Notes under the pieces: generated by a model
Database searches by the model: none
The model's input: only the letters and a program-made list of their open reading frames with translations
Told to the model about the DNA's origin: nothing
Origin: Lingula anatina
Taxonomy: Eukaryota; Animalia; Brachiopoda
Assembly (NCBI GenBank): GCA_051362555.1
Contig: CM120642.1
Location: forward strand, 30,380,001-30,444,000
DNA length: 64,000 bases
Direction: 5' to 3'
Shown here: in pieces, positions 1,575 to 49,271 of the stretch
How positions within the stretch are numbered: position 1 is the stretch's first letter
Layout of the letters: every line of letters starts with the position of its first letter
Program-made: the position numbers and the translations under genes

Positions 1575-3599
1575 TCACAGAAGGGGTAAAGTAATAAATT
1601 GGTTATTTAATGGCAATAAAACTAATTTTGATTTGATCTGCTCTGGACTGATGCTCACTAATCGACCACTCGGATTATTCACGGACCATATGTGTAGTCT
1701 ACTAGATTCCACAGGATATATAAAAAAATTTTCTTTTGTCATAAATGGTTGACATATCAATGTTCTTTCTTGATTGAAAGTGATAATATTTTTTATGATG
1801 AAAGGTGTTTGTCCAACATATATAGCATTATCTGGTTGTTTAACTGATAAAAAAAAATTTTCCATATGAAGTTCTTTATATTGTTTGCATTGCTGATATT
1901 CTTCTGGGACTGGTCCTCTGTGGTGTTCTTTTTTACAAAATGTTTGTGAAGATTTAATTTTTTTTTTCACATGTTCCCTTTCAGCAAGACGGCGTATGAC
2001 TTGTTGGAGTGGCAATTTTGGTTTGCGCACAAGTCTCTTTATAGTCTGAAGATAGTTTTCAAATGGGAAACTTGAAAAATTGTGTAAAACTCCATACATT
2101 TTAGCATGTGCAGCCAAATGAGTGAGCGAGTGAACGTTATAAATTATCTGTTCTGCACCATATGCCTCACTCATGTGCTCCACGAAAAGGGAGAGTATTT
2201 GACCAGCAAAATTACAGTAATCTCCACACAGTGTCTCACTACACAAAATGGTGATTGCTACAAAAAGCATAATAAAATGTTTATACAATGCATTTGGCAA
2301 TTTTCCTCTTAGAACAACAGGACCAGTATACATAAGAAAGGTTCGGAACTCCGTAGCCTTCCATCTTTCAATTTCTGATAAAGCCCGTCCTTTACGTAGA
2401 AATTCTCTGGGAAGAAAGTCTCTCATATTGTTTATACCATCTGAGATACACCTAATCATGTTACCCCCCAGTCTCACATGTAGTGGTCCATTCATCCACA
2501 GTGTCAACAACTTCTTCATAACCCCTAAACATACCAGGTGCATGTAATCTAGTGGAAATTGGCTGATCATGCCAATCCTCAAGGAAAGTAAATTTGACTC
2601 ACCACGTTGGTGTTCATCATACATCATCTCATTAAATGCAACATCAGTTCGAGGTTGTGCATTAGTTTGTGGAAAAGTCATACGGTGATTAACCCACTCA
2701 CCACTTTGAACACAGTTGTCACACCCATAATACCCTGTGTGACCTTTCACTTGTTTCACAAAGCTTCGGGCAGCTGTATCACAAACAAAATTTGATATCC
2801 TAACACTGAAATTTTTGTCATCATAAATTATACCAACTTGTTCTAAGTGTCTCATTTCTTCCACAAATTTATTCAGAAACTGATTAGCATCATTGGGTTT
2901 TGACTGTCCAATCCATAAGCCAATTACAAAGGGATCGGGCTTTTCCTCTTGTGGGAGTAAACCTAAAATTGGCCAAAAGGATTCAGTACTGCTCTTAAAA
3001 AGAGGCAAGCCATCAATATTTATCTGCAGAATGATTTCCTCTTGAGATGCAAGTTCCTGATGAGATGCCAATCTGCATTTTATTCCATATTCTATGCCAA
3101 AATGATGATAATTGCCTCCTGCAACTTGATCAATGATGTATGATTGTTTAGTTTGCAGGAGTGTCCGGCTGTCTTTTGGCAAAAAAGGAAAATATGGTTT
3201 TAAAATACCCAAAAGACTGTTTGCATGACTCAATGGAAGGTTGCTGGTAATCACCCAATCCCTCAGTTTCTTTGCAAAATCTTCATCTTCTTCACCATCT
3301 GAAGAACTAGTGTCCGACACGTCATCATTGCTGCTATCATCACTGAAATTGCTTTCAATATCAAAAGTCATATCCATATTTTCCTGATAACTGGCCTGTG
3401 AACAAGCAGATTCTTCATCAGAAACATCAGCTGTTGTCATTGTCTCCTCATGCTCAATGGTTTGCTCTGCAGGTAAGATGTCATTATCATCTTCACTAGA
3501 TGATTCATCATGAAGATTTGTTAGAATCTGCTGGGCAAGTTTCTCAGCATGACGACGTAATGTCCTGTCGCTGAGCACTGACTTTTTTCCGTCAGACAT
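1575..3599 (-). CDS. Intact EnSpm/CACTA-family (Tnp2/Transposase_21-like) DDE transposase, 674 aa
   Basis: Motifs INIDGLPLFKSS, CDTAARSFVKQVKGHTGYYGCDNC, PLDYMHLVCLGV, RWKATEFR, YNVHSLTHL and FPFENYL are typical of animal EnSpm-like transposases. Acidic N-terminus. Splice acceptor TTTGACAG immediately 5' of the ATG. Confidence 0.9.
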   Translation of the reverse strand: MSDGKKSVLSDRTLRRHAEKLAQQILTNLHDESSSEDDNDILPAEQTIEHEETMTTADVSDEESACSQASYQENMDMTFDIESNFSDDSSNDDVSDTSSSDGEEDEDFAKKLRDWVITSNLPLSHANSLLGILKPYFPFLPKDSRTLLQTKQSYIIDQVAGGNYHHFGIEYGIKCRLASHQELASQEEIILQINIDGLPLFKSSTESFWPILGLLPQEEKPDPFVIGLWIGQSKPNDANQFLNKFVEEMRHLEQVGIIYDDKNFSVRISNFVCDTAARSFVKQVKGHTGYYGCDNCVQSGEWVNHRMTFPQTNAQPRTDVAFNEMMYDEHQRGESNLLSLRIGMISQFPLDYMHLVCLGVMKKLLTLWMNGPLHVRLGGNMIRCISDGINNMRDFLPREFLRKGRALSEIERWKATEFRTFLMYTGPVVLRGKLPNALYKHFIMLFVAITILCSETLCGDYCNFAGQILSLFVEHMSEAYGAEQIIYNVHSLTHLAAHAKMYGVLHNFSSFPFENYLQTIKRLVRKPKLPLQQVIRRLAEREHVKKKIKSSQTFCKKEHHRGPVPEEYQQCKQYKELHMENFFLSVKQPDNAIYVGQTPFIIKNIITFNQERTLICQPFMTKENFFIYPVESSRLHIWSVNNPSGRLVSISPEQIKSKLVLLPLNNQFITLPLL

Positions 3600-4575: not shown

Positions 4576-4662
4576 AGAAGAATCTAGGGATCGAACCTAG
4601 GACCTCTTGCGCTAGGTAAATTAACGTTCTAGGCAAGTGCTCCACCACTGAGCTAATTCTCC
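4576..4662 (-). ncRNA. tRNA-like cassette (tRNA-Ala-like body, 15-nt insertion in anticodon loop)
   Basis: GGAGAAT-TA-GCTCAGTGGTGGAGC-A-CTTGC-CTAGAACGTTAATTTACCTAGC-GCAAG-AGGTC-CTAGG-TTCGATC-CCTAG-ATTCTTC-T. All four stems pair; A box and B box are present. Confidence 0.7.
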
Positions 4663-4999
4663 TTTTTTCTAAGATGCACTCCAACCTGCCAAATAAACCC
4701 AAATCAGTTGTCTCCTTATTAATGCGGGATACTGCCAATTGTCAAGTTAGATTCTAAAATTAATATGGGAGATAGCATTTTGATTGTTATTATTATATTG
4801 GGAGCATATGGGAAATAATTAACATGTGAAAGTAGAACTTACACATTTATAGGTCTAAGTTAGTAAGATTAACATATAGAAATGGAGTGTCAGTAATGGC
4901 AATTACTATGTCTAGCAACAATTGCACAAAACTTGACATGCAAAGTAGACTGAGTTCAAAGGCAGATTATTATGTAAGTGGAGTCAATATCATGTCTAG

Positions 5000-5086
5000 A
5001 GAAGAATCTAGGGATCGGACCTAGGACCTCTTGCGCTAGGTAAATTAACGTTCTAGGCAAGTGCTCTACCACTGAGCTAATTCTCC
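5000..5086 (-). ncRNA. Second tRNA-like cassette of EnSpm copy 1
   Basis: Same cloverleaf with D loop AGTGGTA; B box variant GGTCCGATCC. Confidence 0.6.
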
Positions 5087-6200: not shown

Positions 6201-6555
6201 AACTACATCGCTGGTGGCCCGACGGTGGGCCACCGATGGCTATCGACGGAAAGTAGCGCTCTTTCCGTCGTCGGCCCGCCAACTACACATCGCTAATGTA
6301 TAGACGGCGGGCCAACAGCGGCCAGCTAGCGACGTATCAACGTTATATGCGTAGCTCCCCAGATAGCATGTCGCCGGTGGGCCGACGTTGGGCCACCGAC
6401 TCCAACTACGTCGGCCCACCAGCTACTGTCGCCGGTGGGCCTACGTTGGCCTGACCATCGGTCCAACGTTGGCCCACCAGCGACATACAGCTTGAGCGGC
6501 CCAACGTCGGCCCACCGGCGACAAGTAGCTGGTGGGCCGACGTAGGTCCACTGCT
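6200..6555. repeat. Junction of copies 1 and 2: CACTA-type subterminal repeats and left TIR CCCAGATAGCATG at 6358
   Basis: Many direct and inverted GGTGGGCC(G/A)ACG and CGTCGGCCCACC motifs; the 13-bp TIR is complementary to CATGCTATCTGGG at 37040-37052 and 37080-37092. Confidence 0.88.
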
Positions 6556-11271: not shown

Positions 11272-13260
11272 AATCTCCCTGTGATACAAATGTTATAAAA
11301 GTTAATAAAGTTATGCCTGTTTATCACAGAAGGGGTAAAGTAATAAATTGGTTATTTAATGGCAATAAAACTAATTTTGATTTGATCTGCTCTGGACTGA
11401 TGCTCACTAATCGACCACTCGGATTATTCACGGACCATATGTGTAGTCTACTAGATTCCACAGGATATATAAAAAAATTTTCTTTTGTCATAAATGGTTG
11501 ACATATCAATGTTCTTTCTTGATTGAAAGTGATAATATTTTTTATGATGAAAGGTGTTTGTCCAACATATATAGCATTATCTGGTTGTTTAACTGATAAA
11601 AAAAAATTTTCCATATGAAGTTCTTTATATTGTTTGCATTGCTGATATTCTTCTGGGACTGGTCCTCTGTGGTGTTCTTTTTTACAAAATGTTTGTGAAG
11701 ATTTAATTTTTTTTTTCACATGTTCCCTTTCAGCAAGACGGCGTATGACTTGTTGGAGTGGCAATTTTGGTTTGCGCACAAGTCTCTTTATAGTCTGAAG
11801 ATAGTTTTCAAATGGGAAACTTGAAAAATTGTGTAAAACTCCATACATTTTAGCATGTGCAGCCAAATGAGTGAGCGAGTGAACGTTATAAATTATCTGT
11901 TCTGCACCATATGCCTCACTCATGTGCTCCACGAAAAGGGAGAGTATTTGACCAGCAAAATTACAGTAATCTCCACACAGTGTCTCACTACACAAAATGG
12001 TGATTGCTACAAAAAGCATAATAAAATGTTTATACAATGCATTTGGCAATTTTCCTCTTAGAACAACAGGACCAGTATACATAAGAAAGGTTCGGAACTC
12101 CGTAGCCTTCCATCTTTCAATTTCTGATAAAGCCCGTCCTTTACGTAGAAATTCTCTGGGAAGAAAGTCTCTCATATTGTTTATACCATCTGAGATACAC
12201 CTAATCATGTTACCCCCCAGTCTCACATGTAGTGGTCCATTCATCCACAGTGTCAACAACTTCTTCATAACCCCTAAACATACCAGGTGCATGTAATCTA
12301 GTGGAAATTGGCTGATCATGCCAATCCTCAAGGAAAGTAAATTTGACTCACCACGTTGGTGTTCATCATACATCATCTCATTAAATGCAACATCAGTTCG
12401 AGGTTGTGCATTAGTTTGTGGAAAAGTCATACGGTGATTAACCCACTCACCACTTTGAACACAGTTGTCACACCCATAATACCCTGTGTGACCTTTCACT
12501 TGTTTCACAAAGCTTCGGGCAGCTGTATCACAAACAAAATTTGATATCCTAACACTGAAATTTTTGTCATCATAAATTATACCAACTTGTTCTAAGTGTC
12601 TCATTTCTTCCACAAATTTATTCAGAAACTGATTAGCATCATTGGGTTTTGACTGTCCAATCCATAAGCCAATTACAAAGGGATCGGGCTTTTCCTCTTG
12701 TGGGAGTAAACCTAAAATTGGCCAAAAGGATTCAGTACTGCTCTTAAAAAGAGGCAAGCCATCAATATTTATCTGCAGAATGATTTCCTCTTGAGATGCA
12801 AGTTCCTGATGAGATGCCAATCTGCATTTTATTCCATATTCTATGCCAAAATGATGATAATTGCCTCCTGCAACTTGATCAATGATGTATGATTGTTTAG
12901 TTTGCAGGAGTGTCCGGCTGTCTTTTGGCAAAAAAGGAAAATATGGTTTTAAAATACCCAAAAGACTGTTTGCATGACTCAATGGAAGGTTGCTGGTAAT
13001 CACCCAATCCCTCAGTTTCTTTGCAAAATCTTCATCTTCTTCACCATCTGAAGAACTAGTGTCCGACACGTCATCATTGCTGCTATCATCACTGAAATTG
13101 CTTTCAATATCAAAAGTCATATCCATATTTTCCTGATAACTGGCCTGTGAACAAGCAGATTCTTCATCAGAAACATCAGCTGTTGTCATTGTCTCCTCAT
13201 GCTCAATGGTTTGCTCTGCAGGTAAGATGTCATTATCATCTTCACTAGATGATTCATCAT

Positions 13261-14105
13261 TCGCCTTATTCATATAGACCATAATCCTTTGCGCGCAACA
13301 GGAGTTCCGGTATTTTTTTCCCATATCAATTCTATAGACGCGTGAATTAAATGCCGCACAGGTAAGTGAAAAATGATTATTTAATTTCAAATAAAATAGA
13401 TATGAATAAAACTAATATTTCTCCTCATGATTATCACATTTTGCCATGAAATTAGTCGTTTTTTAATAATTTTTTTTTATTTAGACGATAGGCTGACTTG
13501 GAGCGCATTTGCGCACCGCAGTGTGTTAGATGTGTTGAGAGGAGATTGCGTTCGTGCTTGTCTTGTTTGACCCATTTTTAAAGTCACGTTGGTTTGTTTT
13601 GTTTTTCCGCGAGTCCGATATGAGTCGGATGTCCATTTTGTAAACCATAGCCAGGCCAAATTTACCCAACTTCCAGCAAGAGAGCCGTGAGTGAGACACT
13701 GAGAGGAATTTGATATGTCAGGAAAGTCGTATACCCATTTAATTTATCTTTATGATTCCCTATGTCAGCTGTTCCGTTAATCTTAGACCAAAACATCTGT
13801 TTTAAAGTATATGATAGTAAGGATTTTAAGTAACGATACTAAAATGTACAAGAAGAAAAGGATGCCTAATAAATGTCTAATAAAGGCAAATAAATTCAGC
13901 GCTTCCACTATCATGCTTGTGGGCTGATTTGATAGTTGTCGGCGCCACTAGCTTGATTTTAGTGGTACATTGTTTTGAGGCAGTGGACATTAGTCAGGAC
14001 AGGTGGCAGTGAAATATCACAGGAGAGCAAGCTCAGTGGTAGAGCGTTCACCTTGTGTGGAAGGTCTTGGGTTCGATTCCCAAGCTCTCCCTTTTTCCAA
14101 AGTTA
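13261..14105 (+). repeat. Left long TIR of ISL2EU (~845 bp)
   Basis: About 340 bp perfect, a diverged middle, then ~13880-14095 near-identical to the reverse complement of the right end. Confidence 0.9.
14022..14091 (+). ncRNA. tRNA-like cassette at the inner end of the left TIR, followed by T5
   Basis: GGAGAGC-AA-GCTCAGTGGTAGAGC-G-TTCACCTTGTGTGGAA-GGTC-TTGGG-TTCGATT-CCCAA-GCTCTCC-C-TTTTT. Acceptor, D and T stems pair perfectly and the B box is intact; the anticodon arm is 1 nt short (nominal TGT) and position 8 is A. Confidence 0.72.
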
Positions 14106-14408
14106 ATACCAATAGCCTACCAGTAACTGCATGCATTCCTGTCCAATACTGCATATTCATGCTCTCAAACAGTTATTTTAAATTGCGTACAATATTTAAT
14201 TGTATCTTCTTTCAAATAGCATACATTGCTGAGCTACAAAGCAAATGGCAAAAAATTTATCCATTATATATTAGCATATCTTGGTTTAATATCTTTAATT
14301 CTTAATATATTTATAATACTAAATGTGCTCATCTTGCCCTAAAGTCTACTTTATTTTGTACCATCATTTTGCCATAATTTTCTACAGGGAATAAAGTCAT
14401 TCAGAATA

Positions 14409-16336
14409 ATGAAAAAGGCATATGTGGGCGACTACTGCTGCGTGCCTGGATGCACAAACTCCCGTGGGAAATGTAATCGGGAGGGGCAAGCAATTAGCTT
14501 TTACCAATTCCCCAAAGATGTGAGCCGCAAACACAACTGGCTGTGCCACATACCTGTTGAGAAGGATTTTACACCTACTACATCCACAAGGATATGTTCT
14601 GTGCATTTTGCAGGAGGTATATATAATCAGCTTAAATGTCTGTCACACAATATACCAAATCAACTAGGGGGTAAAGAAAATTATCCTCTATCAGCTATAC
14701 TAGGTGTGACAGACATTAAAGCAATTTATTTGATAGCAATTTAATGAGATTCCCCAGGGAGTTATACTGATCCAGATGGATCAATCTAGGCATGAGATAG
14801 GGAAGATGATCAATTAATTATTTTTTTTATGGATCAATCTAGGCATGAGATAGGGAAGATGATCAATTAATTAATTTTATTATTATTATTATTATTTATT
14901 GCGGTTCAAGTACATTTTTTAAAATGACTATGACCTAACAGTATACATTATATAATCATATAACTAAAATTACAATAGTAAATTACAATATTGTTTATAC
15001 AATAACTGCAATCAGATTTTGCAATTGCAGTATACGCTCAGTTACTTTGGTTGATATATATAATTATATTTACTCATTTACAGGTAGAAAAAATGATGAC
15101 CCAACTCATCCAAGCTACTCACCAACTATTTTTCCCAATAGTTCCTCAAAGCCCCGCACAACAAATAACTCTTTATCTGCAAATAGGAGCTACAACCAAA
15201 AGCCAAAACATATTTTCAGGAAAAGATCATCAACTGGCAGGCAAGCTGCTGGCAGGCCAAAAGTTGCCAGACTTTTAGATTGTCTGAATGAAGCAGGAGA
15301 TCATGATTATTATACAACAAATAAACAACAAAATTTAACAAAAATTCAACAATTGGAAAAAGAGGTAACTGAATTGAAAGAGCAAATTTCTGATTTAAAA
15401 GGAAAATTTCTTCGTTTGGAAAATATAAAAGATGATGACAGAAAATTTCAGTTTTGGACTAATTTGCCAAATTTTTTAGTTTTTTCTTCATTATGCGATT
15501 ACTTAAAAACAAGAACAGATTCAAATAATTTATGTTACTGGAATGGAGAGGCCACAAACACAACAGGGATGACGTCTAAAAAAGGGCCAACTAGAAAATT
15601 TACATTTGAAGAAGAATTTTTTATGGTTTTAGTTAAATTAAAGACAGGAAAATTTAATGAAGACATTGCTCAAACTTTTGATATAAGCACAGGTCATTTT
15701 TCGAAAATCTTTACAACATGGATTAATTTTCTGAGCAATGAACTTAAAACCTTATTTGAAATGAAATATTCAACAGAAGAACAACCTAATTGCTTTCAAT
15801 CATTTGACAATTTAAAAATTATTTTAGACTGCACAGAACTTTTATTACAAAAATCATCATCACTTGATTCAAGAAAGAGCACATTTTCAAATTATAAACA
15901 TCACGATACAGTGAAATTTCTTGTTGGCATATCACCAAATCTTGCCGTGAACTTTGTGTCCAGTGCATGGGGTGGCAGAGCTTCAGACAAGCATATTACC
16001 CTGAACTCTGAGCCACTCCTGCATGGACTCAAGAGGGGGGATTTGGTGATGTCTGACAGAGGTTTCACTGTATCTGATGAATTGGAATTTCAAGGTGTAA
16101 AGATCGTAATGCCTGATTTTAAGGGAAGAGAAAGAGTGCAATTCACAAATGCCGAATCAAATAGATCAAACAAAATTTCCCATGCAAGAATTCACGTAGA
16201 AAGGATCATACAAAGAATTAAGACATTTCACTTATTAGAACAAATTGTTAAGTTAAATATGTTTGACCTATTTGAGCAAATTTTTGTTGTTTGTGCTTAC
16301 CTGACAAACTTTCAGTTACCAGTTATAAAGAAATAA
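14409..16336 (+). CDS. THAP + HTH + DDE_Tnp_4 transposase of ISL2EU, 2 exons (14409-14616, 15084-16336), 486 aa
   Basis: THAP C2CH (CCVPGC..FP..W..ICSVHF..PTIF) joins in frame across a GT-AG intron. Coiled coil, HTH region (EEFFMVLVKLK..DIAQTFDIS), and catalytic IILDCTE, SDRGF, RIHVERII. Confidence 0.92.
14776..14873. repeat. 45-bp direct repeat x2 in the THAP intron
   Basis: ATGGATCAATCTAGGCATGAGATAGGGAAGATGATCAATTAATTA at 14776 and 14829. Confidence 0.85.
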
Positions 16337-16868
16337 ATAATTCCATTCTTATTTAGTTTGTTTATTTTTAGTTAGCATTTTTTGTGATTAATTGTCTTTT
16401 TCAATAATGAATTCTTGCATGGGAAATCAAGTCCAGTTATTCAGCATTACAGTCCAGACTAAGAGCACACCAAAGTTCAGTAAAATTTTGTATTTGTAAA
16501 TCTCCAAGAAAACCCACTTTCAGCTTAAAATGCAGAATAATCCAGGCAAGGCAAGTTTGATTACAGTCAGTTTTATTCAAATACGTATGTGGTCAGGTTG
16601 AAACTGTATTTATATTTGTCATAGTGGTGATTTCACGGCCAAACTTCATTTTAGGAACTTCCACATTTAAATCAAATTAAATCAACATTTGGTAAAGATC
16701 ATTCAGATGCCTCTTTTATAATGACATTATATGAATCTGTTAATGTATGTTATTCATTGAAAAAAACTAACCAAGTTTAAAAGGATATTTTCAGTTTAAA
16801 AAGGATTGAATAACTTTATTTATGGCTTCATCCCCAAGTTGGAGTTTAAAGCAGTCTGACTTAAATTA

Positions 16869-17283
16869 TGTTGAAGGTCTCTAGTAATATGTCTTAATTC
16901 TGTTAATTGGCTTCAATATCTCTGACTTGTTTTAGGAATCACTGTAATGTATTTTGTGTGTATCAGTATATAAGGAGAAGAACTTTGTATTAGAGACAGA
17001 GAGAGATTGGGGATCAGAGCTCGGAGTGAGTTTGGTCAGTCAAACCGATAGCTGGATTGTCCCTGCTGTCTTAGGAGACTCCAGATCTCTCAACCAGAGA
17101 AATAAACGTAAAGATCAGTCATTTGTAGTTGTTCTCTGGAAAACATATTACTGCTGTTGTGTTACCTGTTGGAGAAGTAAATCAGACCAAAGAGTCCCGT
17201 GATATATTCATCAAAGGAGAATTCTGCAGACTACTGTAATATCATTTCCTGTCAGAGATGTAATGCAGACTTACATCTCAACA
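16869..17283 (+). mobile_element. Putative solo LTR (415 bp) inside ISL2EU
   Basis: TGTTGA...TCAACA termini, TATATAA at 16967, AATAAA at 17101; flanks ATTA/AGTA form an imperfect 4-bp TSD. Confidence 0.45.
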
Positions 17284-17855
17284 AGTAATTTTAATATTTT
17301 TGAAATATGAACATATTATAAGATTGTATAATAAAGGTATGGGATTGGTATGTTACTACATTGATAAGAAATGCCATTTTCAGCCAGTAATTTATTGTAC
17401 ATCCCAATTAGTCATTTGAGTACATACATATAGTATTGGAATAGAATAAAATTTTCATGTTTGTGTACTCAACATTTGTATTTTTACATCATTTAAACTG
17501 TTATTGTAATTGACTTTGTAAAACACTGTATTTTATCATGAACTGTTCAAGTCCTTAAATAAACTCATTAAGGAGGAAATTGCAATTACTCCTCAAATCT
17601 TCATATAAATGCATGTTACCAAACTTTTTGTAAATACATTATGAACAAGTTTAGGCATTTATGTATATGTTGACATGATGGTGATTGAGGTTGGGTATAA
17701 TGATTTAATATAATTATATAAACAACCATTCTCAATATGAAAGTACTACACCAATATGTGCACATATTTTGTAATGTTCTATATACATCATATAATTACA
17801 CTGGGAATCATTTCCCAATATTGGTTTTGACCAATTCAGTAATCATTTTCATTCC

Positions 17856-19709
17856 CTAACACATCTTGGGCATTTTGTTCTTATTGTTCCAGCTTAAAAT
17901 ATTCGGCACTATATATTTCTTAAAAAAGCTTACACAACCAGGTAATAATTTTTTTTGGCAAAATTCAGCATTATACCCAACCTCAATCACCATCATGTCA
18001 ACATTTGTCCAAATTACAAATTCACATTTATTCAATTTTAGAATATACATCAATGCCTGAACTTGTTCATAATAGCCCTCTGTTGAGAATGGTTTTAGCA
18101 TAAAATTGCCATCCAGATACCTTATCTTACCACATTTTATGGCATCTTTCACCATCATATTCCTGCATGAATATGGACACTTAATTTCTAACACTCTCTC
18201 AGAATGGCAGCTACATGTTATTATTCCATCTGGACTGCCTCTTATATATGGATAGTCTTCAGCAACAACTAGGCCTTTCTCATTAATTGACAAGTTTGTG
18301 TGTTGCTTCTTCTGTTGTCTAAGGTACTGATCTCTTGCCTTCTTTTCATTACTAATCCCCCACTTAAGTGATGGTACTGTAGTATAAGGGATATTGTCTT
18401 CAGAGCATTCTCTCCCCATGATGGCAGTAATGACCGATTTGCATGGGGGTTTCTGCTTTTCAAATGTGCGAAGAATGGACCCCATCCTTGAGGCTGTAAC
18501 TGCACCCCTTCTTTGCTGGTGCCACTCAGGGTTCTCTCTCTGGCCTCTTGTGGATTCCTCAATCTGATGAATTTCATTTTCACTAAATTTTATTGATTTT
18601 ACAAAATTTTCAACTTGATCGTTAATGCATGCATCATAATCACAATTATGAGGATGGTCAAAAATTGGTAATGGTAATGCAGTGACAGTAACTTCATTGT
18701 CAAATAAAATTGAATTGTCATTTTCTAGGTGTGTATCAAAGAGAATAGAATCTGGAATTTTATTTGCATTATGGAGATTTGCTCCCAAAAGATGTACTGC
18801 AGGACAATATTGTCCTATGTGATGTGTGGCATTAAAAAGGCTCGCCCTCAACTTTAAAATGTCATCTTTTGAAGGTGGTTTTTGCTGTCGTATGACCTGT
18901 CCATAGTCGTCAGGGGTCCTCTGCATGCTGCTCACATTCTTTTTTATAGGAAGATGAGACAGCAGTGATGGACTTGCAGAGGACCCTTTAGGCTCCAGCC
19001 ACTCGCACAGCAAGGAGGTGCTAGCTGTTATGTCCTCCTTGACTCCACTTGCAACTAGGTCTGCAACCCTAAATAGTGTTGCCCCTATATGGCCACATGT
19101 CAAGGAATAGCCTACAGAACAGGTACAAAACCCACCACATGGAATGGCATTGATTTTGTTTATAACAACAAAAACCACCTTTACATCCTCAGAATTTGTT
19201 GATTGAGAGGCATTGCAATAGGCCCTTATTATACTAAAAAATTTCAAATCTGAACATTGGCTATAACGAACAGAATGCACAGAATCTTTTAACTGATACG
19301 GGCGAGAGAGTTTGTAGGTTCTTGCACAATCTGCTGTGATGACTTCTGTATTTAAAAGATATCTTTTTATGTCTGACACATCTATATCTGGGATGTTTAA
19401 TAAATTCGTTGAAAAGTCATTTCGTGTACAGAGCTTTTGGGGACTGACATTTTGATGAAATTCTTGGAATTGTTCGTCAGATAATTTTACTCCTGGGTGA
19501 AGTAATGAGTCCTTTGTTTTGAACCCTGTAGTTGACAGTCCCAATATGTCACACAAAAAAATGCACCTTGCCTTTTTTGGGTAGTGCACTGCAATTTGGT
19601 GCTTCAAACATAATTTTTTTAAGGTCTCTGCTTTCAGTGCAAATACTTCTGTGCATGATCTTGGTTGTAATGTCACAGTATCTTCTTCGGTCTTGCTTTT
19701 AGTTTTCAT
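17856..19709 (-). CDS. SWIM zinc finger + YqaJ (lambda-exonuclease-like) nuclease of ISL2EU, 617 aa
   Basis: SWIM CTCSVG..TCGH; YqaJ motifs TRGQ..W...R...TASR, WG..NE..A, GSPDG, EIKCPY, YYEQVQ. ATG at 19709 lies just after the acceptor TTTTAG at 19722. Confidence 0.92.
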   Translation of the reverse strand: MKTKSKTEEDTVTLQPRSCTEVFALKAETLKKLCLKHQIAVHYPKKARCIFLCDILGLSTTGFKTKDSLLHPGVKLSDEQFQEFHQNVSPQKLCTRNDFSTNLLNIPDIDVSDIKRYLLNTEVITADCARTYKLSRPYQLKDSVHSVRYSQCSDLKFFSIIRAYCNASQSTNSEDVKVVFVVINKINAIPCGGFCTCSVGYSLTCGHIGATLFRVADLVASGVKEDITASTSLLCEWLEPKGSSASPSLLSHLPIKKNVSSMQRTPDDYGQVIRQQKPPSKDDILKLRASLFNATHHIGQYCPAVHLLGANLHNANKIPDSILFDTHLENDNSILFDNEVTVTALPLPIFDHPHNCDYDACINDQVENFVKSIKFSENEIHQIEESTRGQRENPEWHQQRRGAVTASRMGSILRTFEKQKPPCKSVITAIMGRECSEDNIPYTTVPSLKWGISNEKKARDQYLRQQKKQHTNLSINEKGLVVAEDYPYIRGSPDGIITCSCHSERVLEIKCPYSCRNMMVKDAIKCGKIRYLDGNFMLKPFSTEGYYEQVQALMYILKLNKCEFVIWTNVDMMVIEVGYNAEFCQKKLLPGCVSFFKKYIVPNILSWNNKNKMPKMC

Positions 19710-20389
19710 CTCCCCAACCAACTAAAATAAAAACATGAGATTTCTATACTAGTTGTGACAGACATTAAAGCAATTTATTTGTAACAGGAAGCATTAATTA
19801 GGGCAGGGGAAGAGGTTTAGACAGTAACAACAAGAGATCAATGTTTGTACATGTGTACAATTAGGGATCAAAAACTAGACCCTCACCCTAGACCTTTCAT
19901 AATGGGTAAATGACAACAATGAACTTGCTTTCCTTATGATTTTCTTCTTTGCATTTATTCTGCCTTATATTCAATACCGGATAACTACTAGTACTAGAAT
20001 AATTTCATAAAATCAGACAGGGAAAAATCACACAGGGAAAATATAATCTGCTATACTCAAGTAAACATATCAAGAAAGGTTCAACTATCAATTGTCCTTT
20101 ACCTAGTAGACTAAGTTAGCATATCCTAACCACTTTCAAATAAATAATGATGCTTTTCAGAGTGGAAACCTCCATGCATGCAATACATGTTCAAAGTACA
20201 ACATACTTACAGATCCTGTACACCATGGGCACCTTGAGAGGAAATGATCATAAAATGGACAAAATGTTTTCTGTACTAATATACAAGTATAAATGAAAAA
20301 CAATACTCTATATGATACAAATATATTTTAAAATTTGATACTGTTTGAGGGCAAATGTAGGACAAGAAGGTAGTTATTTAAGTAGCTGG

Positions 20390-21248
20390 TAACTTTGGAA
20401 AAGGGAGAGCTTGGGAATCGAACCCAAGACCTTCCACACAAGGTGAACGCTCTACCACTGAGCTTGCTCTCCTGTGATATTTCACTGCCACCTGTCCTGA
20501 CTAATGTCCACTGCCTCAAAACAATGTACCACTAAAATCAAGCTAGTGGCGCTGACAACTATCAAATCAGCCCACAAGCATGATAGTGGAAGCGCTGAAT
20601 TTATTTGCCTTTATCAGACATATTGTTCTGACCAGAATTACCCTTTTCTTCTTGTACATTTTAGTATCGTTATTTTAAAAATGGGACACTCTTACTATAT
20701 CTAATATACTTTCAAACAAATGTAAATATTTTGGTCTAAAAATAACGGAACAACTGACATATGGTAACATAAATATAAGTGGGTATGCGACTTTCCTGAC
20801 ATATCAATTCCCTCTCAGTGTCTCACTCCAGGCGCTCTTGCTGGAATTTTTGATAATTTTGACCTGGCTGTGGTTTGAATAATTTGGACATCGAACTCGC
20901 AGAAAATCAAAACAAACCAACGTGACTTTAAAAATGGGTCAAACAAGACAAGCACGAACGCAATCTCCTCTCAACACATCTAACACACTGCGGTGCGCAA
21001 ATGCGCTCCAAGTCAGCCTATCGTCTAAATAAAAAAAAATTATTAAAAAACGACTAATTTCATGGCAAAATGTGATAATCATGAGGAGAAATATTAGTTT
21101 TATTCATATCTATTTTATTTGAAATTAAATAATCATTTTTCACTTACCTGTGCGGCATTTAATTCACGCGTCTATAGAATTGATATGGGAAAAAAATACC
21201 GGAACTCCTGTTGCGCGCAAAGGATTATGGTCTATATGAATAAGGCGA
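20390..21248 (-). repeat. Right long TIR of ISL2EU
   Basis: Reverse complement of 13261-14105. Confidence 0.9.
20403..20472 (-). ncRNA. tRNA-like cassette at the inner end of the right TIR, followed by T4
   Basis: Exact reverse complement of 14022-14091. Confidence 0.72.
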
Positions 21249-22314
21249 ATGAAGATTTGTTAGAATCTGCTGGGCAAGTTTCTCAGCATGACGACGTAAT
21301 GTCCTGTCGCTGAGCACTGACTTTTTTCCGTCAGACATTCTGTCAAATAATTGAAATATTTATCAACATTAGGTCCTGATAAGGTAGACTATTTCTGCTT
21401 GATGAACTACACATTTTAATGAGTAGTGATTACCTTAGTAAAAAAAAAAAATCAGTGCTGGTCATTTTAGTCAGTATGTGGCCCACATTTGTTATCTTGT
21501 TCACTTTTAAAGAAATAAATGGTGTTAATATGATTGATTTTGATATAATTTATTTTGTAAGTGAGCATATATATGACATAAATGAAAAACAGTTTTTTAT
21601 ATCCATACTGTAAACCCCAAATCTGGTGATGGCAAGTCGTTATAGTTGAGGAACACCAGCACCAATGCTTTGGTGTTAGGACAATCGAAATCTCCTTTTG
21701 CATTAAGTAACAACTCAGTGATAGTTTATACACTTTTATTGCACTCAATGACAAGGCAGCAAAACTGTGAAATCTACAGCCATAAAAGCAATGCAATAAT
21801 GCACAAAATGATAATGCTAGTGTGATTGGTGCAATCTCTCAGTTCTTCAGTGCTTAAGTTCTGTAAAGCTCCTAAGCATTTTTGATAATTATTAGTTAAA
21901 GGTACATATGAATGGAGTGTTGGTGGATCATGGATTCCCAGTAACACATATAAACCACTTCTACTAGTTTATGATACAACTAAAAAAAATTCGACATGCT
22001 AAGGGATAAACTGAATAAATCATTAAATCAGCCATAGAAAACATAGAAAAGCTTTAGACTGCTCCTTTTTTTAAATTTTAGTCAGAAATTTAACCTACTT
22101 TTGTTACCGTCTTTTCTGGCCTGGCCCAATCTTTAATAGCATTGAATATACAACATTTTATAGCTCAAAGTTAGTAAGATTAACATATAGAAAGGCAGTG
22201 TCAGTCATGGCAATTACTAATCATGTCTAGTAACAAATGCACAAAACTTGACATGCAAAGTAGACTGAGTTCAAAGGCAGATTATTATGTAATTGGAGTC
22301 AAGATCATGTCTAG

Positions 22315-22401
22315 AGAAGAATCTAGGGATCGAACCTAGGACCTCTTGCGCTAGGTAAATTAACGTTCTAGGCAAGTGCTCCACCACTGAGCTAATTCTC
22401 C
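22315..22401 (-). ncRNA. tRNA-like cassette, EnSpm copy 2 (first)
   Basis: Same as 4576-4662. Confidence 0.68.
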
Positions 22402-22738
22402 TTTTTTCTAAGATGCACTCCAACCTGCCAAATAAACCCAAATCAGTTGTCTCCTTATTAATGCGGGATACTGCCAATTGTCAAGTTAGATTCTAAAATT
22501 AATATGGGAGATAGCATTTTGATTGTTATTATTATATTGGGAGCATATGGGAAATAATTAACATGTGAAAGTAGAACTTACACATTTATAGGTCTAAGTT
22601 AGTAAGATTAACATATAGAAATGGAGTGTCAGTAATGGCAATTACTATGTCTAGCAACAATTGCACAAAACTTGACATGCAAAGTAGACTGAGTTCAAAG
22701 GCAGATTATTATGTAAGTGGAGTCAATATCATGTCTAG

Positions 22739-22825
22739 AGAAGAATCTAGGGATCGGACCTAGGACCTCTTGCGCTAGGTAAATTAACGTTCTAGGCAAG
22801 TGCTCTACCACTGAGCTAATTCTCC
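22739..22825 (-). ncRNA. tRNA-like cassette, EnSpm copy 2 (second)
   Basis: Same as 5000-5086. Confidence 0.6.
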
Positions 22826-30521: not shown

Positions 30522-33500
30522 CCCAGATAGCATGCATACGTTGGGCCAACGTTGGCCCAACGTTGCCTTGGTTGACCATGCAACGTTGGCCCAACGTTGG
30601 GTTTCCATCTAAGTGCTCACTTTGGCCAACGGTTGGCTGAACGTCTTTTTAATGCCAACGCATTGCCAACGTATTCCCAACCAAACTGCGTTGGCCCTAC
30701 ATTGGGCCAACTAATAACCAACATTGGTCCAACAATTACCCAACCTGTAACCAACAGTGCATTTACGTTGGTCCTACTAATAACCAACATCAGTCCAACG
30801 ATTACCCAACCAAACTGCGTTGGCCCTACATTAGGCCAACTAATAACCAACATTGGTCCAACAATTACCCAACCTGTAACCAACAGTGCAATTACGTTGG
30901 TTCTACTAATAACCAACATCAGTCCAACAATTACCCAACCTCAAACCAACAATGTATCCGCGTTGGCCCAATGGTAGGCCAACTGGTCACCAAGTTATCT
31001 GCAATTTGCACAAATTATGACCCAACCTAAAACCAGGGGCACAGTGATTTACAGTAACCCAACATTGAGCTAAAGGCAAAATCTTTTTTTTTTTTTTGAA
31101 TCACATAGGTAGTAGGGCACTGTAATTACACATCTGATGCACAGGCAGATCAATGTCCTGATGAAATATCTTGAGCATCTGAAATCTGCAAACTGCAAGA
31201 TATGGCTGAAAAATTGGCAAGGTTTCTAAGGGATGAATCCTTCAGAGGACTTGATCTGCCTGTGATCATTTACACTACACCTGGAAAATTGTCAATTAAT
31301 AATTGTAGTTGAAACAAAAAGATTAGTGATATATTTTGAACTGTTTAATTAATTCATAACATTACATAAAACAAATACATTACACCAACTAAATAATGAT
31401 ATGTGAATTGAAATATAATACAAAAAGACAACAAAGAAAATTTTTATAAGATATTATAATATTAAATTTAAACATTAATAAGTGTGTCTTATATCAATTG
31501 TTACATGATTCACATCAAAAAAATTTTAACAGTCCTATGACTTTTCACCTTATTCCTGGAGTCAAGGCATTTTTCTACTAGTAAAGTCTTTTTTTGCCCC
31601 ATTTCAATTTTTAAAAACATTTTCATTAAATTAAATTTTAAACCTGAAACCCTTGTTAATGTCAGGTAAGATGCTTTTCATAGGAACTTTCATAAGTTAT
31701 ATGTCAAGTCTATAAAATCACAGTCTCTTCCGTCAGGCAAAATCTCAGACATTGTCTCTTTAAAAATCAAATCAGTGGTCATATGAGTTAAATCTTGTGT
31801 TTTTTCTCTCTTTCCTGTCCTGCACCTGCATGATCTTTGGCAAAGCACGATTAGTTAGGTGTATCTTCAACATCTTTTTCTGAACAGTCACAGAAGAGTG
31901 TGCTGCACCTACAAATTTAAATATTAAAAACACTTGAAATATAATGCTAGAATTGGTATGGTACATAACATGACTGTACCTCTTCCCCCATATTTCATAT
32001 ACAAACTAGTACTAGTAGGTGTGTATTATATGATAATCTCCCCACCTTTTCTAAGTTAGGCAAAAGCCAATGTCTTAACTTTAAAAGTGTGTGTCTTGTG
32101 TGCAGTAATTTATAGTGATTTATTTAAATTAGTTCTTACGTGTACACTTGACCATGAATTCAGTTTTTAGACAACTGTAATGTACCACTAAATTCCACAT
32201 CATTTAATCATTCCAACAACTCTATCACAGAATTTACTGGCCAGGATTCATACAGACACATAAGAACAATTGGCTTCCAAGGACTTTTAAGGCTCTAAAT
32301 CAAATCATTTTCAATGATTTTAACTAATGAGGGCAAGTTATACATTAATACAGTTATATTAAAGTGTACATACCAAAGGAAAAATGACTCATTTCATTTA
32401 AACTTTGTCTTTGTAACACATTGATGATGAAAAGTTGAAAATAAAAGTACAAGTAATGATGTATTAAAAGATATTACCCCCATCTGTGAATTATTGTCTG
32501 TATTCATCTCAATAAACTACAAAGTTTTAAATAATATTTTTACAAAGACAAAATGCTGAAATGCAAACCTTTTTCAAGCCTAATAGCATTTTCAAGTACT
32601 TTTCAAAGTTACATTTAAACTAGAGCCATTAAACTAGTTACATTTAAACTAGTCCAAAGTGCTGGACTAAATTTGAACACTTTTCAAGGCTGTATGGATC
32701 CTGGTGCATCAGTAAATAATGGGAAAATACACAATTAAAAATTCACTTACCAGTACATGCTCACTTCTTATCCTGTCTCTTTATCTCTTCATTTTCTAAT
32801 TTCCAAAAAGATGTCTTCTTTCTATATCCAGAAACCAATGCTTTCAGCCGTAATTCTTGCCTCTTCCTTAGAACATTTCTGACCTTCTGGCTTAGATTTT
32901 TGAATTGGCTCAACGGTCAGCGCGCTTAAGACTGTGCTATGTATAGTTGTTTGACCTGTTTGAGCAGGCAGTAGGCAAACTGTTTATATCAAACTGACAG
33001 TTAAGATAAACACCTGGCTTGTAATGAATCTGGTCCAGTGAAAGTTACCAGTGTACTTTAATCAAAAGTCAATTGATGCTAACTATAAAGTTTAAAATTT
33101 ATATATTGAGCAATTGTACATTATAATAAGATTTCAATCATTTGTCTGATTTCAATAACAATAATAATAATAGCAATAATAATAAATATGTTTCACAGCA
33201 TTATTTAAAAATATAAATCTGTTCACTCAGTAATTTTTTTATAGGTGAAGTCTATGTACTATATACTATATCCATTCAGAAAAAAAGACAAAATGAAAAA
33301 TATATATATATGAGAGTATATAGCTTGGAAGACAAATAAAAGTAGAACACTGTTTTTTAGCCCAAGGAATTTGACAAACTCTTAATAAAAAAAAAATTTA
33401 ATCCTAAAAACTATATGTTACTGATCAATAGATAAGCACATGTGATTCTCAGTTGTGAACAGAAACATTTTTATTATAACAGAAACATTATTCATTTCTA

Positions 33501-33725
33501 TTGAGTTGTTAATTGGATACGTTGGCCCAACGTTAGGCCAACGTATGCAACAAATATGCACACGTTGGCCCAACGTTGGGCCAACATGAGCATATTGCAG
33601 TTATGTTGTGCATATTATGATGTGGTTGGGCCAACGTTGGGCCAACGTATTACTACCAACGCCAACTATGTGCCAACAAACCAACGATTCCCCTACGTTG
33701 GCCCAACGTATGCTTGCTATCTGGG
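30522..33725. mobile_element. Non-autonomous EnSpm/CMC element, 3204 bp, TG TSD
   Basis: Empty site CC-TG-ATGAG; here TG|CCCAGATAGCATGCATACGTTGGGCCAACGT...ACGTTGGCCCAACGTATGCTTGCTATCTGGG|TG. About 31-bp TIR with one mismatch, TTGGCCCAACG subterminal repeats, no long ORF. Confidence 0.92.
30676..30940. repeat. 129-bp tandem repeat (2 copies) of CCAAC-rich subterminal motifs
   Basis: CCCAACCAAACTGCGTTGGCCCTACA at 30676 and 30805. Confidence 0.85.
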
Positions 33726-35243: not shown

Positions 35244-35330
35244 AGAAGAATCTAGGGATCGAACCTAGGACCTCTTGCGCTAGGTAAATTAACGTTCTAG
35301 GCAAGTGCTCCACCACTGAGCTAATTCTCC
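35244..35330 (-). ncRNA. tRNA-like cassette, EnSpm copy 3 (first)
   Basis: Same as 4576-4662. Confidence 0.68.
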
Positions 35331-35667
35331 TTTTTTCTAAGATGCACTCCAACCTGCCAAATAAACCCAAATCAGTTGTCTCCTTATTAATGCGGGATAC
35401 TGCCAATTGTCAAGTTAGATTCTAAAATTAATATGGGAGATAGCATTTTGATTGTTATTATTATATTGGGAGCATATGGGAAATAATTAACATGTGAAAG
35501 TAGAACTTACACATTTATAGGTCTAAGTTAGTAAGATTAACATATAGAAATGGAGTGTCAGTAATGGCAATTACTATGTCTAGCAACAATTGCACAAAAC
35601 TTGACATGCAAAGTAGACTGAGTTCAAAGGCAGATTATTATGTAAGTGGAGTCAATATCATGTCTAG

Positions 35668-35754
35668 AGAAGAATCTAGGGATCGGACCTAGGACCTCTT
35701 GCGCTAGGTAAATTAACGTTTTAGGCAAGTGCTCTACCACTGAGCTAATTCTCC
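35668..35754 (-). ncRNA. tRNA-like cassette, EnSpm copy 3 (second; nominal anticodon AGA changed to AAA)
   Basis: As 5000-5086, with a substitution at 35721. Confidence 0.55.
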
Positions 35755-48030: not shown

Positions 48031-48969
48031 TCACTTAGGCCTCTTGAAGGAAACTTGCAGGCGCTTTCCACCAGCGAAGCTGAAGCCATTCAGGTTCTGT
48101 ATGGCCCAGCAGGCCTCCTGGTAATTCATCATGGTGACAAACCCGAAGCCCCGACTGGCCCCAGTCTGCTGGTCACGCATTACATTGCACTTCTGGACGA
48201 TGCCATAGGGAGAAAACAGCTGCCACAGGGTCTTCTCATCGGAGTCAGAGCCAATGTTGTAGACAAACAATGTATGGCCCTGGCCGTGGTCACCGCTGGC
48301 GCCCATGCCACCACCAATGGTTGGAGGACTAGACTTTCCCATGGCACCACGCCCCATACCCCCACTTCCCATGCCAAAGGCTCCCATACTACCAGGACTG
48401 TAAGGGTTGGGTGGGGGATGCACCTTCTTGGCCGGCTCCTCAGCAAACTTAATACTGAGTGGATACTGGCCCCCAGGGGCCGTCTTTCCATTCAGCCCAT
48501 TCAGAGCATCTTCAGCCTGATTTCTCTGCGCAAACAACACAAATCCCACCCCAATGGAGTTCCCAGTGAACTGATCTTTGAGGATGCGCCTTTGCACAAT
48601 TGAACCAAAGCCACAGAACAAGTTCTCCAGCTCATCCTCTGTCATGCTGGTTGGTAAATTACGAATATACAGTTTAGCGTTCTTGATGGTTTCACCACCT
48701 GGGCGTGCGTAAGCAACTTTCAGTGTCTTGGTCTCTATCTGATACCTGTTTAGTGTCTGTATTGCAGTTTCAGCATGGACTGGATTCACATAATCTATAA
48801 ATCCGTAACCAAAACTGTACCCAGTGGTGCGGTCTCGAATGATTCGTGAGACCCTCACTGGGCCAATTTTAAGGAACATTTGGCGAAACTCCTCGTCTGT
48901 CATGTTCTGAGGGAGGTAGTTGACAATGAGGGTGGTCTTTGATTGGTTGTCCCCATCTCCACTCGCCAT
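48031..48969 (-). CDS. Sxl/ELAV-family RNA-binding protein, 3 RRMs, 312 aa, uninterrupted CDS (paralog A)
   Basis: LIVNYLPQ, TGYSFGYGFIDY, VAYARPGGE, LYIRNLP, GVGFV, Gly-rich hinge, LFVYNIG..LWQLF..RGFGFVTM. Confidence 0.92.
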   Translation of the reverse strand: MASGDGDNQSKTTLIVNYLPQNMTDEEFRQMFLKIGPVRVSRIIRDRTTGYSFGYGFIDYVNPVHAETAIQTLNRYQIETKTLKVAYARPGGETIKNAKLYIRNLPTSMTEDELENLFCGFGSIVQRRILKDQFTGNSIGVGFVLFAQRNQAEDALNGLNGKTAPGGQYPLSIKFAEEPAKKVHPPPNPYSPGSMGAFGMGSGGMGRGAMGKSSPPTIGGGMGASGDHGQGHTLFVYNIGSDSDEKTLWQLFSPYGIVQKCNVMRDQQTGASRGFGFVTMMNYQEACWAIQNLNGFSFAGGKRLQVSFKRPK

Positions 48970-49271
48970 CTTGCTTTGGTTCCAGTACGGTTCCAGTGCG
49001 TTGTCTCTCTGGCTTTACCAGCGTGCAGACACTTTGAAGTTTGGACTTTCTCACTCTGAGTTGGAGTTTCATGGTTCCAGGGCAAAGAGAAGAAAAAATT
49101 AAAAAAACAAAAAATGAAAATACTTGAAAATTCCAGTAAAAATGCTGGAAAACTGAAAAGCAAAAACTCAATTAGAAAAAAAAAGGGAAAAAATTCTAAC
49201 CTTCCTAAATAAAGTATCAGAAAATATAAAAATTAGGGCATCGCATTGCAGTTTTTTATTCATTAAAAAAA

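What the first reader, a model, noticed from the sequence alone, without database searches (positions are those of the whole stretch)
13880..20615. ISL2EU transposon carries a tRNA-like Pol III cassette at the inner end of both long TIRs
Seen: 14022-14091(+) and 20403-20472(-) are identical 70-nt cloverleafs with a perfect 7-bp acceptor stem, D stem, T stem and B box, followed at once by T5 or T4. The anticodon arm is 1 nt short and position 8 is A, so decoding is unlikely. The cassette and ~140 bp upstream are near-identical between the TIRs, while the ~280 bp outside them have diverged, and TIR homology stops just after the T-run. Each points inward, in sense with the downstream gene. An AGGTGGCAGTG motif resembling half a CTCF site lies at 14001-14011. 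Known: TFIIIC-bound tDNAs act as heterochromatin barriers, and tRNA folds are cut by RNase P/Z. Inference: the element brackets its genes with Pol III barrier or RNA-processing cassettes, possibly against silencing. I know of no description of this for ISL2EU.
Basis: partly seen in the sequence, partly recalled or inferred. Interest (0 to 1): 0.85.

Follow-up and report, generated by a model that had tools for sequence, protein, structure and literature searches.

The report
Transposon with intron-borne tRNA lookalikes
A jumping gene, most likely from the brachiopod Lingula, carries an identical tRNA-shaped sequence, predicted not to decode, in both of its unusually long ends, predicted to sit in an intron ahead of each of its two genes where it likely tunes their RNA processing (untested; it may be a passenger), and an unrelated jumping gene next to it shows the same layout.

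Summary
The cassettes are real: identical 70-nt cloverleaves at 14022-14091(+) and 20403-20472(-), Rfam tRNA 53 bits. The element is larger than reported: an ISL2EU at 13261-21248 with an AT duplication, an empty site nearby and ~845-bp TIRs. Its transposase is identical to a Lingula anatina protein. The 'conserved island' argument fails: the outer 359 bp are also 99% identical, and run X5 indicates both TIRs usually share the middle part. Each TIR holds the conserved element end and a predicted non-coding exon and splice donor, so the cassette lies inside a predicted 5'-UTR intron, downstream of the likely promoter. That is the wrong side for a shield against outside heterochromatin. The CTCF-like motif is not supported. 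Five related families with whole left leaders lack the cassette; a sister subfamily keeps it with a longer anticodon loop and a broken T-run. The unrelated EnSpm-like host element carries two similar cloverleaves, in sense, in its own predicted leader intron. Best reading: a captured non-decoding cloverleaf acting on the element's pre-mRNAs (0.40); passenger 0.35; TFIIIC barrier 0.18. Not found in print. The scan noted tRNA-like cargo in other TIR elements before (unchecked notes).

The parts
13259..13260 (.). left AT target-site duplication
   Evidence: empty site with a single AT at 3510-3511 in the sister tandem unit
13261..21248 (.). whole ISL2EU element, 7988 bp
   Evidence: self-comparison, junctions and empty site
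13261..14105 (+). left TIR, ~845 bp
   Evidence: blastn 874 columns, 90.5% to 21248-20390; segment identities
13261..13311 (+). element end with subterminal motif shared with related families; likely promoter (inferred; resembles recalled ZNF143/Staf and ETS sites)
   Evidence: matches ends in L001, L004, L011, L017-L021, L031, L040 and weakly L032
13362..14387 (+). predicted 5'-UTR intron of the transposase gene, containing the left cassette
   Evidence: the only GTAAGT in the 1152-nt leader, at +102; pyrimidine-rich AG acceptor 21 nt before the ATG; 21 ATGs in the unspliced leader; splice-like signals in relatives' leaders; no RNA joint seen
13873..14021 (+). 149-bp upstream module, 147 of 149 identical between TIRs, present in diverged form in a sister subfamily
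   Evidence: fold z -2.6, 1 of 200 shuffles, but MFE and centroid disagree
14022..14091 (+). left tRNA-like cloverleaf, predicted non-decoding, followed by T5 (14092-14096)
14409..16336 (+). THAP-HTH-DDE transposase gene, exons 14409-14616 and 15084-16336, 486 aa
   Evidence: Pfam THAP, HTH_Tnp_4, DDE_Tnp_4; 100% to P0001, XP_013380134.1, Lingula anatina
17856..19709 (-). YqaJ-like exonuclease gene, ATG at 19709
   Evidence: 621-aa open frame 17856-19721; Pfam YqaJ E 6e-17
19722..21147 (-). predicted 5'-UTR intron of the YqaJ gene, containing the right cassette (a second GTAAGT lies near 20210)
   Evidence: same donor as in the left TIR; T-rich AG acceptor 12 nt before the ATG
20403..20472 (-). 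right tRNA-like cloverleaf, identical to the left, followed by T4
20390..21248 (-). right TIR
21249..21250 (.). right AT target-site duplication
4576..5086 (-). two tandem 87-nt tRNA-like cloverleaves (4576-4662, 5000-5086) of the EnSpm-like host element, in its predicted leader intron (donor 5936, acceptor 3601); repeated at 22315-22825 and 35244-35754
   Evidence: Rfam 55.0-55.6 bits; splice signals

Best explanation
This is an 8-kb ISL2EU DNA transposon whose 845-bp inverted ends each carry the same tRNA-shaped, predicted non-decoding cloverleaf, predicted to lie in a 5'-UTR intron ahead of each of its two genes, where it likely acts as a folded RNA that tunes processing of the element's own pre-mRNAs. 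SHOWN: boundaries, AT duplication, two open genes, TIR length, cloverleaf, sense orientation, absence from five related families. INFERRED: (1) The conserved end is a promoter firing inward, followed by a short non-coding exon and an intron. (2) A tRNA-derived sequence was captured into that intron in this lineage. (3) One end was copied over the other, so both genes share promoter, exon, donor and cassette, and conversion keeps the TIRs alike. (4) The fold is kept while the anticodon loop is free (5 nt here, about 12 in a sister subfamily, 22 in the EnSpm-like element), which fits recognition of tRNA shape rather than decoding. UNTESTED: host tRNA-shape readers (RNase P/Z-type cutting in the intron, or splicing factors as for human intronic nimtRNAs) act on it and set transposase and YqaJ output.
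For: Position and orientation: 8 of 8 window cassettes are in sense and inside a predicted leader intron, in two unrelated transposons; these are only two independent cases. Rfam finds no tRNA-like sequence elsewhere in the 64 kb, including the ~27 kb right of the transposon array. The ISL2EU and EnSpm-like cassettes differ at 9 of 21 stem pairs (7 two-sided, 2 one-sided) with 0 broken. The 3 variable sites among the six EnSpm-like copies are all unpaired, one of them in the B box (T55 to C in 3 of 6 copies). EnSpm tandem duplicates differ at 2 of 88 nt in the cassette, against 28 substitutions and 5 gaps in 255 flanking nt (Fisher p 0.0035). The T-run, needed for a tidy Pol III gene, is absent after the EnSpm-like copies (first T4 at +68) and broken in sister-subfamily contigs (14091 deletion, 14094 T>A). 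Helenus tRNA-like LTRs conserve mainly boxes A and B (PMC10886601 section 3.5), whereas the acceptor stem is whole here. Precedent: intronic tRNA lookalikes enhance splicing in a cloverleaf-dependent way (PMC7722341 abstract).
Against: No direct evidence of function. The intron is predicted only; no splice joint was listed in 3 of 3 RNA runs at very low depth. Two-sided changes between the two cassettes would also arise if they came from two real tRNA genes, and host tRNA genes could not be obtained for comparison. The conserved tract in the EnSpm duplicates runs ~75 nt past the cassette, so gene conversion explains it equally well. With 52% of positions unpaired, 3 of 3 unpaired changes is weak (about 0.14). 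The canonical anticodon stem is not the preferred fold. Five related families lack the cassette, three of them with long leaders, so it is dispensable for the group. Intronic nimtRNAs were not cut out as tRNAs in 293T cells (PMC7722341 section 7), which argues against the cleavage branch.
Confidence: 0.4

Rival explanations
1. Neutral passenger: a tRNA gene or pseudogene was picked up into the leader intron, copied to the other end by TIR expansion and kept identical by TIR homogenisation; it does nothing.
For: Absent from 47 of 47 related loci by ARAGORN and half-cassette profiles, including 9 loci (5 families) with a whole left leader. The outer TIR is as identical as the cassette, and a variant at 13326 is carried at 551 of 551 depth in X5, so both ends change together. 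The element also carries other high-depth repeats in its intron and spacer. Stems would be intact by descent after a recent capture.
Against: The same layout occurs in an unrelated element beside it. Lesions concentrate in the anticodon loop in three versions. Strong TIR identity ends right behind the cassette in both this family and, as I read, the sister subfamily, although remnants show the TIR once reached further.
Confidence: 0.35
2. One reading: the cassette is a TFIIIC/Pol III site that acts at DNA level as a barrier or open-chromatin keeper protecting the element from silencing.
For: Perfect B box, near-complete A box and an immediate T4/T5, i.e. a complete type-2 Pol III gene layout; present at both ends. 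tRNA-derived B2 SINEs act as mobile chromatin boundaries in mouse (PMC8136502 abstract).
Against: It lies ~760 bp inside the end and downstream of the likely promoter and first exon. A8 breaks the first A-box position. Three of 6 EnSpm-like copies have a changed B box. The CTCF-like motif has 4 mismatches. A DNA-level site does not need a whole acceptor stem or a fixed orientation.
Confidence: 0.18
3. It is the head of a known tRNA-derived repeat (LinSINE1-type SINE or Helenus solo LTR) inserted in the TIR, or a working tRNA gene.
For: Lingula has a MetaSINE (PMC4824008 passages) and three Helenus families (PMC10886601). ARAGORN labels it tRNA-Thr(tgt).
Against: No body, poly-A or flanking direct repeat of 5 nt or more. 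The two copies diverge right after the T-run. By eye it does not match the three Lingula Helenus LTRs beyond the boxes. At 13990-14041 only two contigs were laid in each of X1 and X6, both with the TIR upstream sequence, at about 2-2.7 times interior depth. A8 and a 5-nt loop argue against decoding.
Confidence: 0.07

Closest known systems
ISL2EU group of the PHIS superfamily (Han et al. 2015, PMC4482050; passages read)
   Same: AT target-site duplication; THAP-HTH-DDE transposase; second ORF with YqaJ domain; animal host.
   Different: TIR ~845 bp against 6-259 bp reported; ends begin TC, not the usual GG; site is C-AT-G, not A-AT-T; 7988 bp against a mean of ~4840; carries tRNA-like cassettes, which the passages read do not mention.
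Helenus / Cassandra / Ajax (TRIMp3; Kojima 2024, PMC10886601; parts 1-4 of 6 and supplement passages read)
   Same: A small-RNA-derived sequence held in both terminal repeats of a mobile element; predicted non-functional as tRNA; proposed to arise by insertion into one repeat and copying to the other; Helenus occurs in Lingula.
   Different: Those are short non-autonomous LTR retrotransposons that use the boxes as promoter for their RNA intermediate. This is an autonomous cut-and-paste DNA transposon with inverted repeats, no RNA intermediate, a whole acceptor stem and an immediate T-run.
Human nimtRNAs, intronic tRNA lookalikes (Hoser et al. 2020, PMC7722341; abstract and section 7 read)
   Same: A tRNA cloverleaf inside an intron of a Pol II pre-mRNA, not used for decoding.
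   Different: nimtRNAs derive from mitochondrial tRNAs and lie in host genes; here the cassette has nuclear-type A and B boxes and lies in a transposon. No splicing effect was tested here.
tDNA and B2 SINE chromatin boundaries (PMC8136502, abstract read)
   Same: A/B-box element able in principle to bind TFIIIC, moved by transposition.
   Different: Here it lies inside the predicted transcription unit, not between promoter and flank; no CTCF site found.
MALAT1 mascRNA / NEAT1 menRNA (recalled; PMC8457004 seen only in a search listing)
   Same: A non-decoding tRNA-like fold in a Pol II transcript, a possible RNase P/Z substrate.
   Different: Those define a 3' end behind a U-rich triple helix; no such element was evident here, and the cassette is in a 5' leader.

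Membership tests
ISL2EU | 2-bp AT target-site duplication confirmed by an empty site | tested here: met
ISL2EU | transposase with THAP, HTH and DDE domains | tested here: met
ISL2EU | second ORF with YqaJ exonuclease domain | tested here: met
ISL2EU | typical, not defining: TIR 6-259 bp usually starting GG, target A|AT|T | tested here: not met
   845-bp TIR starting TC, flanks C and G; relatives share TC ends after AT, so this is a TC-ended subgroup
ISL2EU | DDE domain falls in the ISL2EU clade of a PHIS tree | not tested
   no reference ISL2EU sequences were at hand
functional cytosolic tRNA gene | cloverleaf with paired acceptor, D and T stems | tested here: met
functional cytosolic tRNA gene | U8 and a 7-nt anticodon loop on a 5-bp stem | tested here: not met
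   A8; 5-nt loop in the canonical register
type-2 Pol III gene | A box, B box and a terminator of 4 or more T | tested here: met
   B box perfect, A box with one mismatch, T5/T4; T-run broken in sister contigs
type-2 Pol III gene | TFIIIC/Pol III occupancy and a transcript | not testable with these tools
   no ChIP or small-RNA library among the 21 listed runs
tRNA-derived SINE | head followed by a shared body and tail, with TSD | tested here: not met
   no shared body, tail or flanking repeat
tRNA-derived SINE | high copy number outside the element | tested here: inconclusive
   contig depth about 2-2.7 times interior, but depth is no copy number and human-like contigs are filtered out
Helenus (TRIMp3) | direct LTRs with PBS and PPT, or a solo LTR with 4-bp TSD | tested here: not met
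   inverted copies, no flanking duplication found, no by-eye match to the three Lingula Helenus LTRs

The most novel reading that the evidence does not exclude
DNA transposons of two unrelated superfamilies in one animal have each recruited a non-decoding tRNA cloverleaf into the 5'-UTR intron of their transposition genes as a regulatory RNA device read by the host's tRNA-processing or splicing machinery, and the ISL2EU family extended its TIR so that both genes get it. This would be the class II counterpart of TRIMp3, working through RNA shape rather than as a promoter.
Probability: 0.25. Interest if true: 0.8.

Novelty: new variant of a known kind. Interest (0 to 1): 0.55.

Why it matters
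Small-RNA-derived parts of mobile elements are known as promoters for retroelements (SINEs, Cassandra, Helenus). An autonomous DNA transposon has no RNA intermediate, so a maintained tRNA fold would need another job: self-control of transposase output, splicing help, or chromatin protection. The layout makes the job easy to test, because stem and B-box mutations separate RNA-level from DNA-level action in one ~1-kb leader. Even as a passenger it matters for annotation: such cassettes are called as tRNA-Thr or tRNA-Ser genes. The element also shows a TIR about three times the longest reported for ISL2EU in the paper read, grown to include a whole predicted promoter-exon-intron leader for both genes.

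Tried and rejected
No whole genome is held for the window, so no genome-wide copy count and no host tRNA set. Run search: no RNA holder listed. Three RNA runs (poly-A, unspecified, oligo-dT; about 6, 6 and 25 in 100 of each run read) had zero depth at 13920-14399 and no listed splice joint. These libraries lose a 70-nt RNA and introns, and depth on the genes was mostly 0-3, so this is no evidence either way. Runs X10 and X20 gave 2 and 1 contigs only: one 49-nt piece on the cassette, one piece at 14289-14324, and one on the THAP exon; none was usable. Covariation in the sister subfamily could not be counted, because 22 of 62 difference rows were not shown. Viral contigs held no relative of either transposase. 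A degenerate cassette pattern found only 1 viral and 2 bacterial loci; ARAGORN calls the first two tRNA-Asn and makes no call at the third; I treat them as unrelated. CTCF site rejected. A structured trailer behind the cassettes (tRNA-miRNA or tRNA-snoRNA type) rejected: z 0.3 to 1.1 in 4 of 4 trailers. Other Rfam hits in the element are below gathering score. ARAGORN's Thr(tgt), Ser(aga) and Phe(aaa) labels are rejected as real isotypes because the anticodon arms are non-canonical. The LinSINE1 consensus could not be seen: it is in a figure, and supplement file 1 of PMC4824008 was not searchable; it may bear on the cassette's origin. The protein atlas gave no answer for the EnSpm-like protein, so that label rests on weak DUF4218, CCC ends and a 2-bp duplication in a related insert.
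Full report
OBSERVATION. The two cassettes are present and identical over 70 of 70 nt. Rfam scores both at 53.1 bits against a gathering score of 29. Acceptor, D and T stems are fully paired, position 8 is A, and a T5 (left) or T4 (right) follows at once. In the canonical register a 5-bp anticodon stem can form around a 5-nt loop (1.6% of shuffles), but RNAfold prefers a shifted stem. Decoding is unlikely either way. The CTCF-like motif has 4 mismatches to a recalled consensus and is not supported.

THE ELEMENT. Self-comparison shows a tandem array of ~9.75-kb units, one interrupted by an insertion at 13261-21248. The insertion is flanked by AT, and the sister unit has a single AT at 3510-3511. 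It encodes a THAP-HTH-DDE transposase and a convergent YqaJ protein. The transposase is identical to XP_013380134.1 of Lingula anatina; relatives at 55-57% identity come from bivalves, and at 44-51% from a nemertean and lancelets. These features meet the ISL2EU definition in PMC4482050 (passages). TIR length (845 bp against 6-259) and the TC end (against the usual GG) are atypical.

THE 'CONSERVED ISLAND'. The outer 359 bp are 99% identical too; only 13620-13872 is diverged (74%). In DNA run X5 the right-TIR letters at 13602, 13608 and 13710 stand at depth 516 of 516, about twice the interior, and a variant at 13326 at 551 of 551. I infer that typical copies have matching TIRs throughout and that both ends change together. 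Contig depth is no copy number, so this is a ratio within one element only. Identity of the two cassettes is therefore not evidence of selection on them. A weak remnant of homology runs past the T-run, so the TIR probably once reached further.

POSITION. The first ~50 bp of the element match the ends of related families. In L001 and L017-L021 the THAP match starts about 116-123 bp from the end, with no room for a cassette. In L011, L032 and L004 the leader is about 590, 840 and 970 bp and shows donor- and/or acceptor-like signals. In the window the 1152-nt left leader has one GTAAGT, at +102, an acceptor 21 nt before the ATG, and 21 ATGs if unspliced; the right leader has the same donor and an acceptor 12 nt before the YqaJ ATG. 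So each TIR likely holds promoter, non-coding exon and intron start, and the cassette is intronic and in sense. This is predicted, not shown: no joint was listed in three RNA runs at very low depth. The geometry leaves the likely promoters outside the bracket formed by the cassettes, which argues against a shield against outside heterochromatin.

RELATIVES. A metagenome scan gave 47 loci. ARAGORN found no tRNA in 47 of 47; Rfam at E up to 3 found none in the 11 of 47 scanned; half-cassette profiles over 188,281 bases hit only the 8 window cassettes. Most loci are truncated. The informative ones are 9 loci of 5 families (45-61% identity in the best segment) with a whole left leader, plus L017/L018 with a right leader. 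The cassette is thus lineage-restricted. In runs X1 and X6 only two contigs cover 13990-14041: one identical (depth 57.5 and 371) and one diverged (6.2 and 105; 22-23 substitutions and 9 gap letters over 13892-14084, including 7 letters inserted at 14053-14054 in X6). Both carry the upstream module. The identical contig has about 1.7-2.7 times the depth of the main interior contigs (19-22 and 136-225). A true high-copy repeat in the coding intron reaches 13,826 in X5, against 1047 for the cassette bin. This argues against an abundant SINE head, with the caveat that human-like contigs, which may include real tRNA genes, are silently left out. Two further contigs carry a deletion at 14091 and T>A at 14094, which breaks the T-run; one continues along the transposase-side intron and one leaves the stretch at 14097. 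I read them as the two ends of a sister subfamily (inference). Twenty-two of 62 difference rows were cut, so covariation could not be counted.

THE NEIGHBOUR. The interrupted unit is an EnSpm/CACTA-like element (weak DUF4218; CCC-starting ends and a 2-bp duplication around a related insert; family label recalled). Each unit carries two tandem 87-nt cloverleaves (55 bits), in sense, between a strong donor at 5936 and the acceptor before the transposase ATG; two weaker GTAAGT sites also lie in that leader. Against the ISL2EU cassette, 9 of 21 stem pairs differ (7 on both sides) and none is broken; the anticodon loop is 22 nt; no T-run follows directly. The three variable sites among six copies are unpaired, one in the B box. 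The duplicates are more alike in the cassette than in the flanks (p 0.0035), but the alike tract extends ~75 nt downstream, so conversion is not excluded. From recall, with no call behind it: the D arm and variable loop of both cassettes resemble animal tRNA-Ala, and both have A3-U70 in place of the G3-U70 alanine identity pair.

MECHANISM. Shown: boundaries, genes, TIR, fold, orientation, patchy distribution. Inferred: capture into a leader intron, copying by TIR expansion, tolerance of change in the anticodon loop, B box and T-run but not in stems. Untested: any activity. I put an RNA-level role on the element's own pre-mRNAs at 0.40, passenger at 0.35, TFIIIC barrier at 0.18, and known repeat or working tRNA at 0.07. 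The first two are close and the data here do not separate them well. Human intronic tRNA lookalikes raise splicing in a fold-dependent way but were not cut out (PMC7722341, abstract and section 7), which favours the splicing branch over cleavage.

LITERATURE. Full-text searches for ISL2EU + tRNA (16 papers), DNA transposon + tRNA-like + TIR + Repbase (4), DNA transposon / captured tRNA / MITE / tRNA-derived / Pol III with 4 of 5 terms (4) and tRNA gene + carried by + DNA transposon + EnSpm (3, of which 1 listed) showed no title or abstract describing such cassettes. I saw listings only; Repbase entries and subscription journals were not searched. The closest described case is Helenus (PMC10886601, parts 1-4 of 6 and supplement passages); its main text does not use the terms DNA transposon or ISL2EU. 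Earlier scan notes report tRNA-like cargo in other TIR elements; they are unchecked and are not counted as support.

VERDICT. A real and unusual feature on a known kind of element; new variant; function open. Interest 0.55.

Noticed in passing
window 1-37092: Head-to-tail array of an EnSpm/CACTA-like element (~9.75-kb unit, 99.3-99.7% identity, ends at 6359, 24085 and 37052/37092), with the right end clipped at internal junctions and a 40-bp terminal duplication at the array end; may be a true tandem array or partly an assembly effect.
   Followed up: partly
window 4576-5086, 22315-22825, 35244-35754 (-): Each EnSpm-like unit carries two tandem tRNA-like cloverleaves at 424-bp spacing in the predicted leader intron; the anticodon loop holds a 12-nt insert between two copies of a 5-nt word.
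   Followed up: yes
window 13279-13311 and matching ends in L001, L004, L011, L017-L021, L031, L032, L040: A conserved subterminal motif across ISL2EU families whose transposases are 45-61% identical; it resembles recalled ZNF143/Staf and ETS sites, suggesting a housekeeping-type promoter built into both ends. All these ends start TC after AT, a subgroup unlike the usual GG ends.
   Followed up: partly
window 13261-13411 (-) and 21098-21248 (+): The TIR read outward is an open frame that fuses in frame with the interrupted EnSpm-like transposase (695-aa frame 11324-13411, with an ATG inside the TIR), so the insertion may leave an N-terminally swapped host transposase.
   Followed up: no
window 30522-33725: 3.2-kb insert with the same end sequence as the EnSpm-like units and a TG duplication, inserted into the transposase of the third unit: likely a non-autonomous relative.
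   Followed up: partly
window 14640-15119 and 16560-17279: High-depth repeats nested in the ISL2EU coding intron and spacer (X5 depth up to 13,826 and about 3,700), also present in RNA runs with loose ends.
   Followed up: no
L017 and L018: A whole ~7.4-kb related ISL2EU with short imperfect TIRs; in L018 two copies are joined head to tail by a single AT.
   Followed up: partly
window 48031-49014 and 52947-53993 (-), 55584-56663 (+): Two single-frame three-RRM (ELAV-like, label recalled) genes in tandem and a LAP1_C-domain frame.
   Followed up: no
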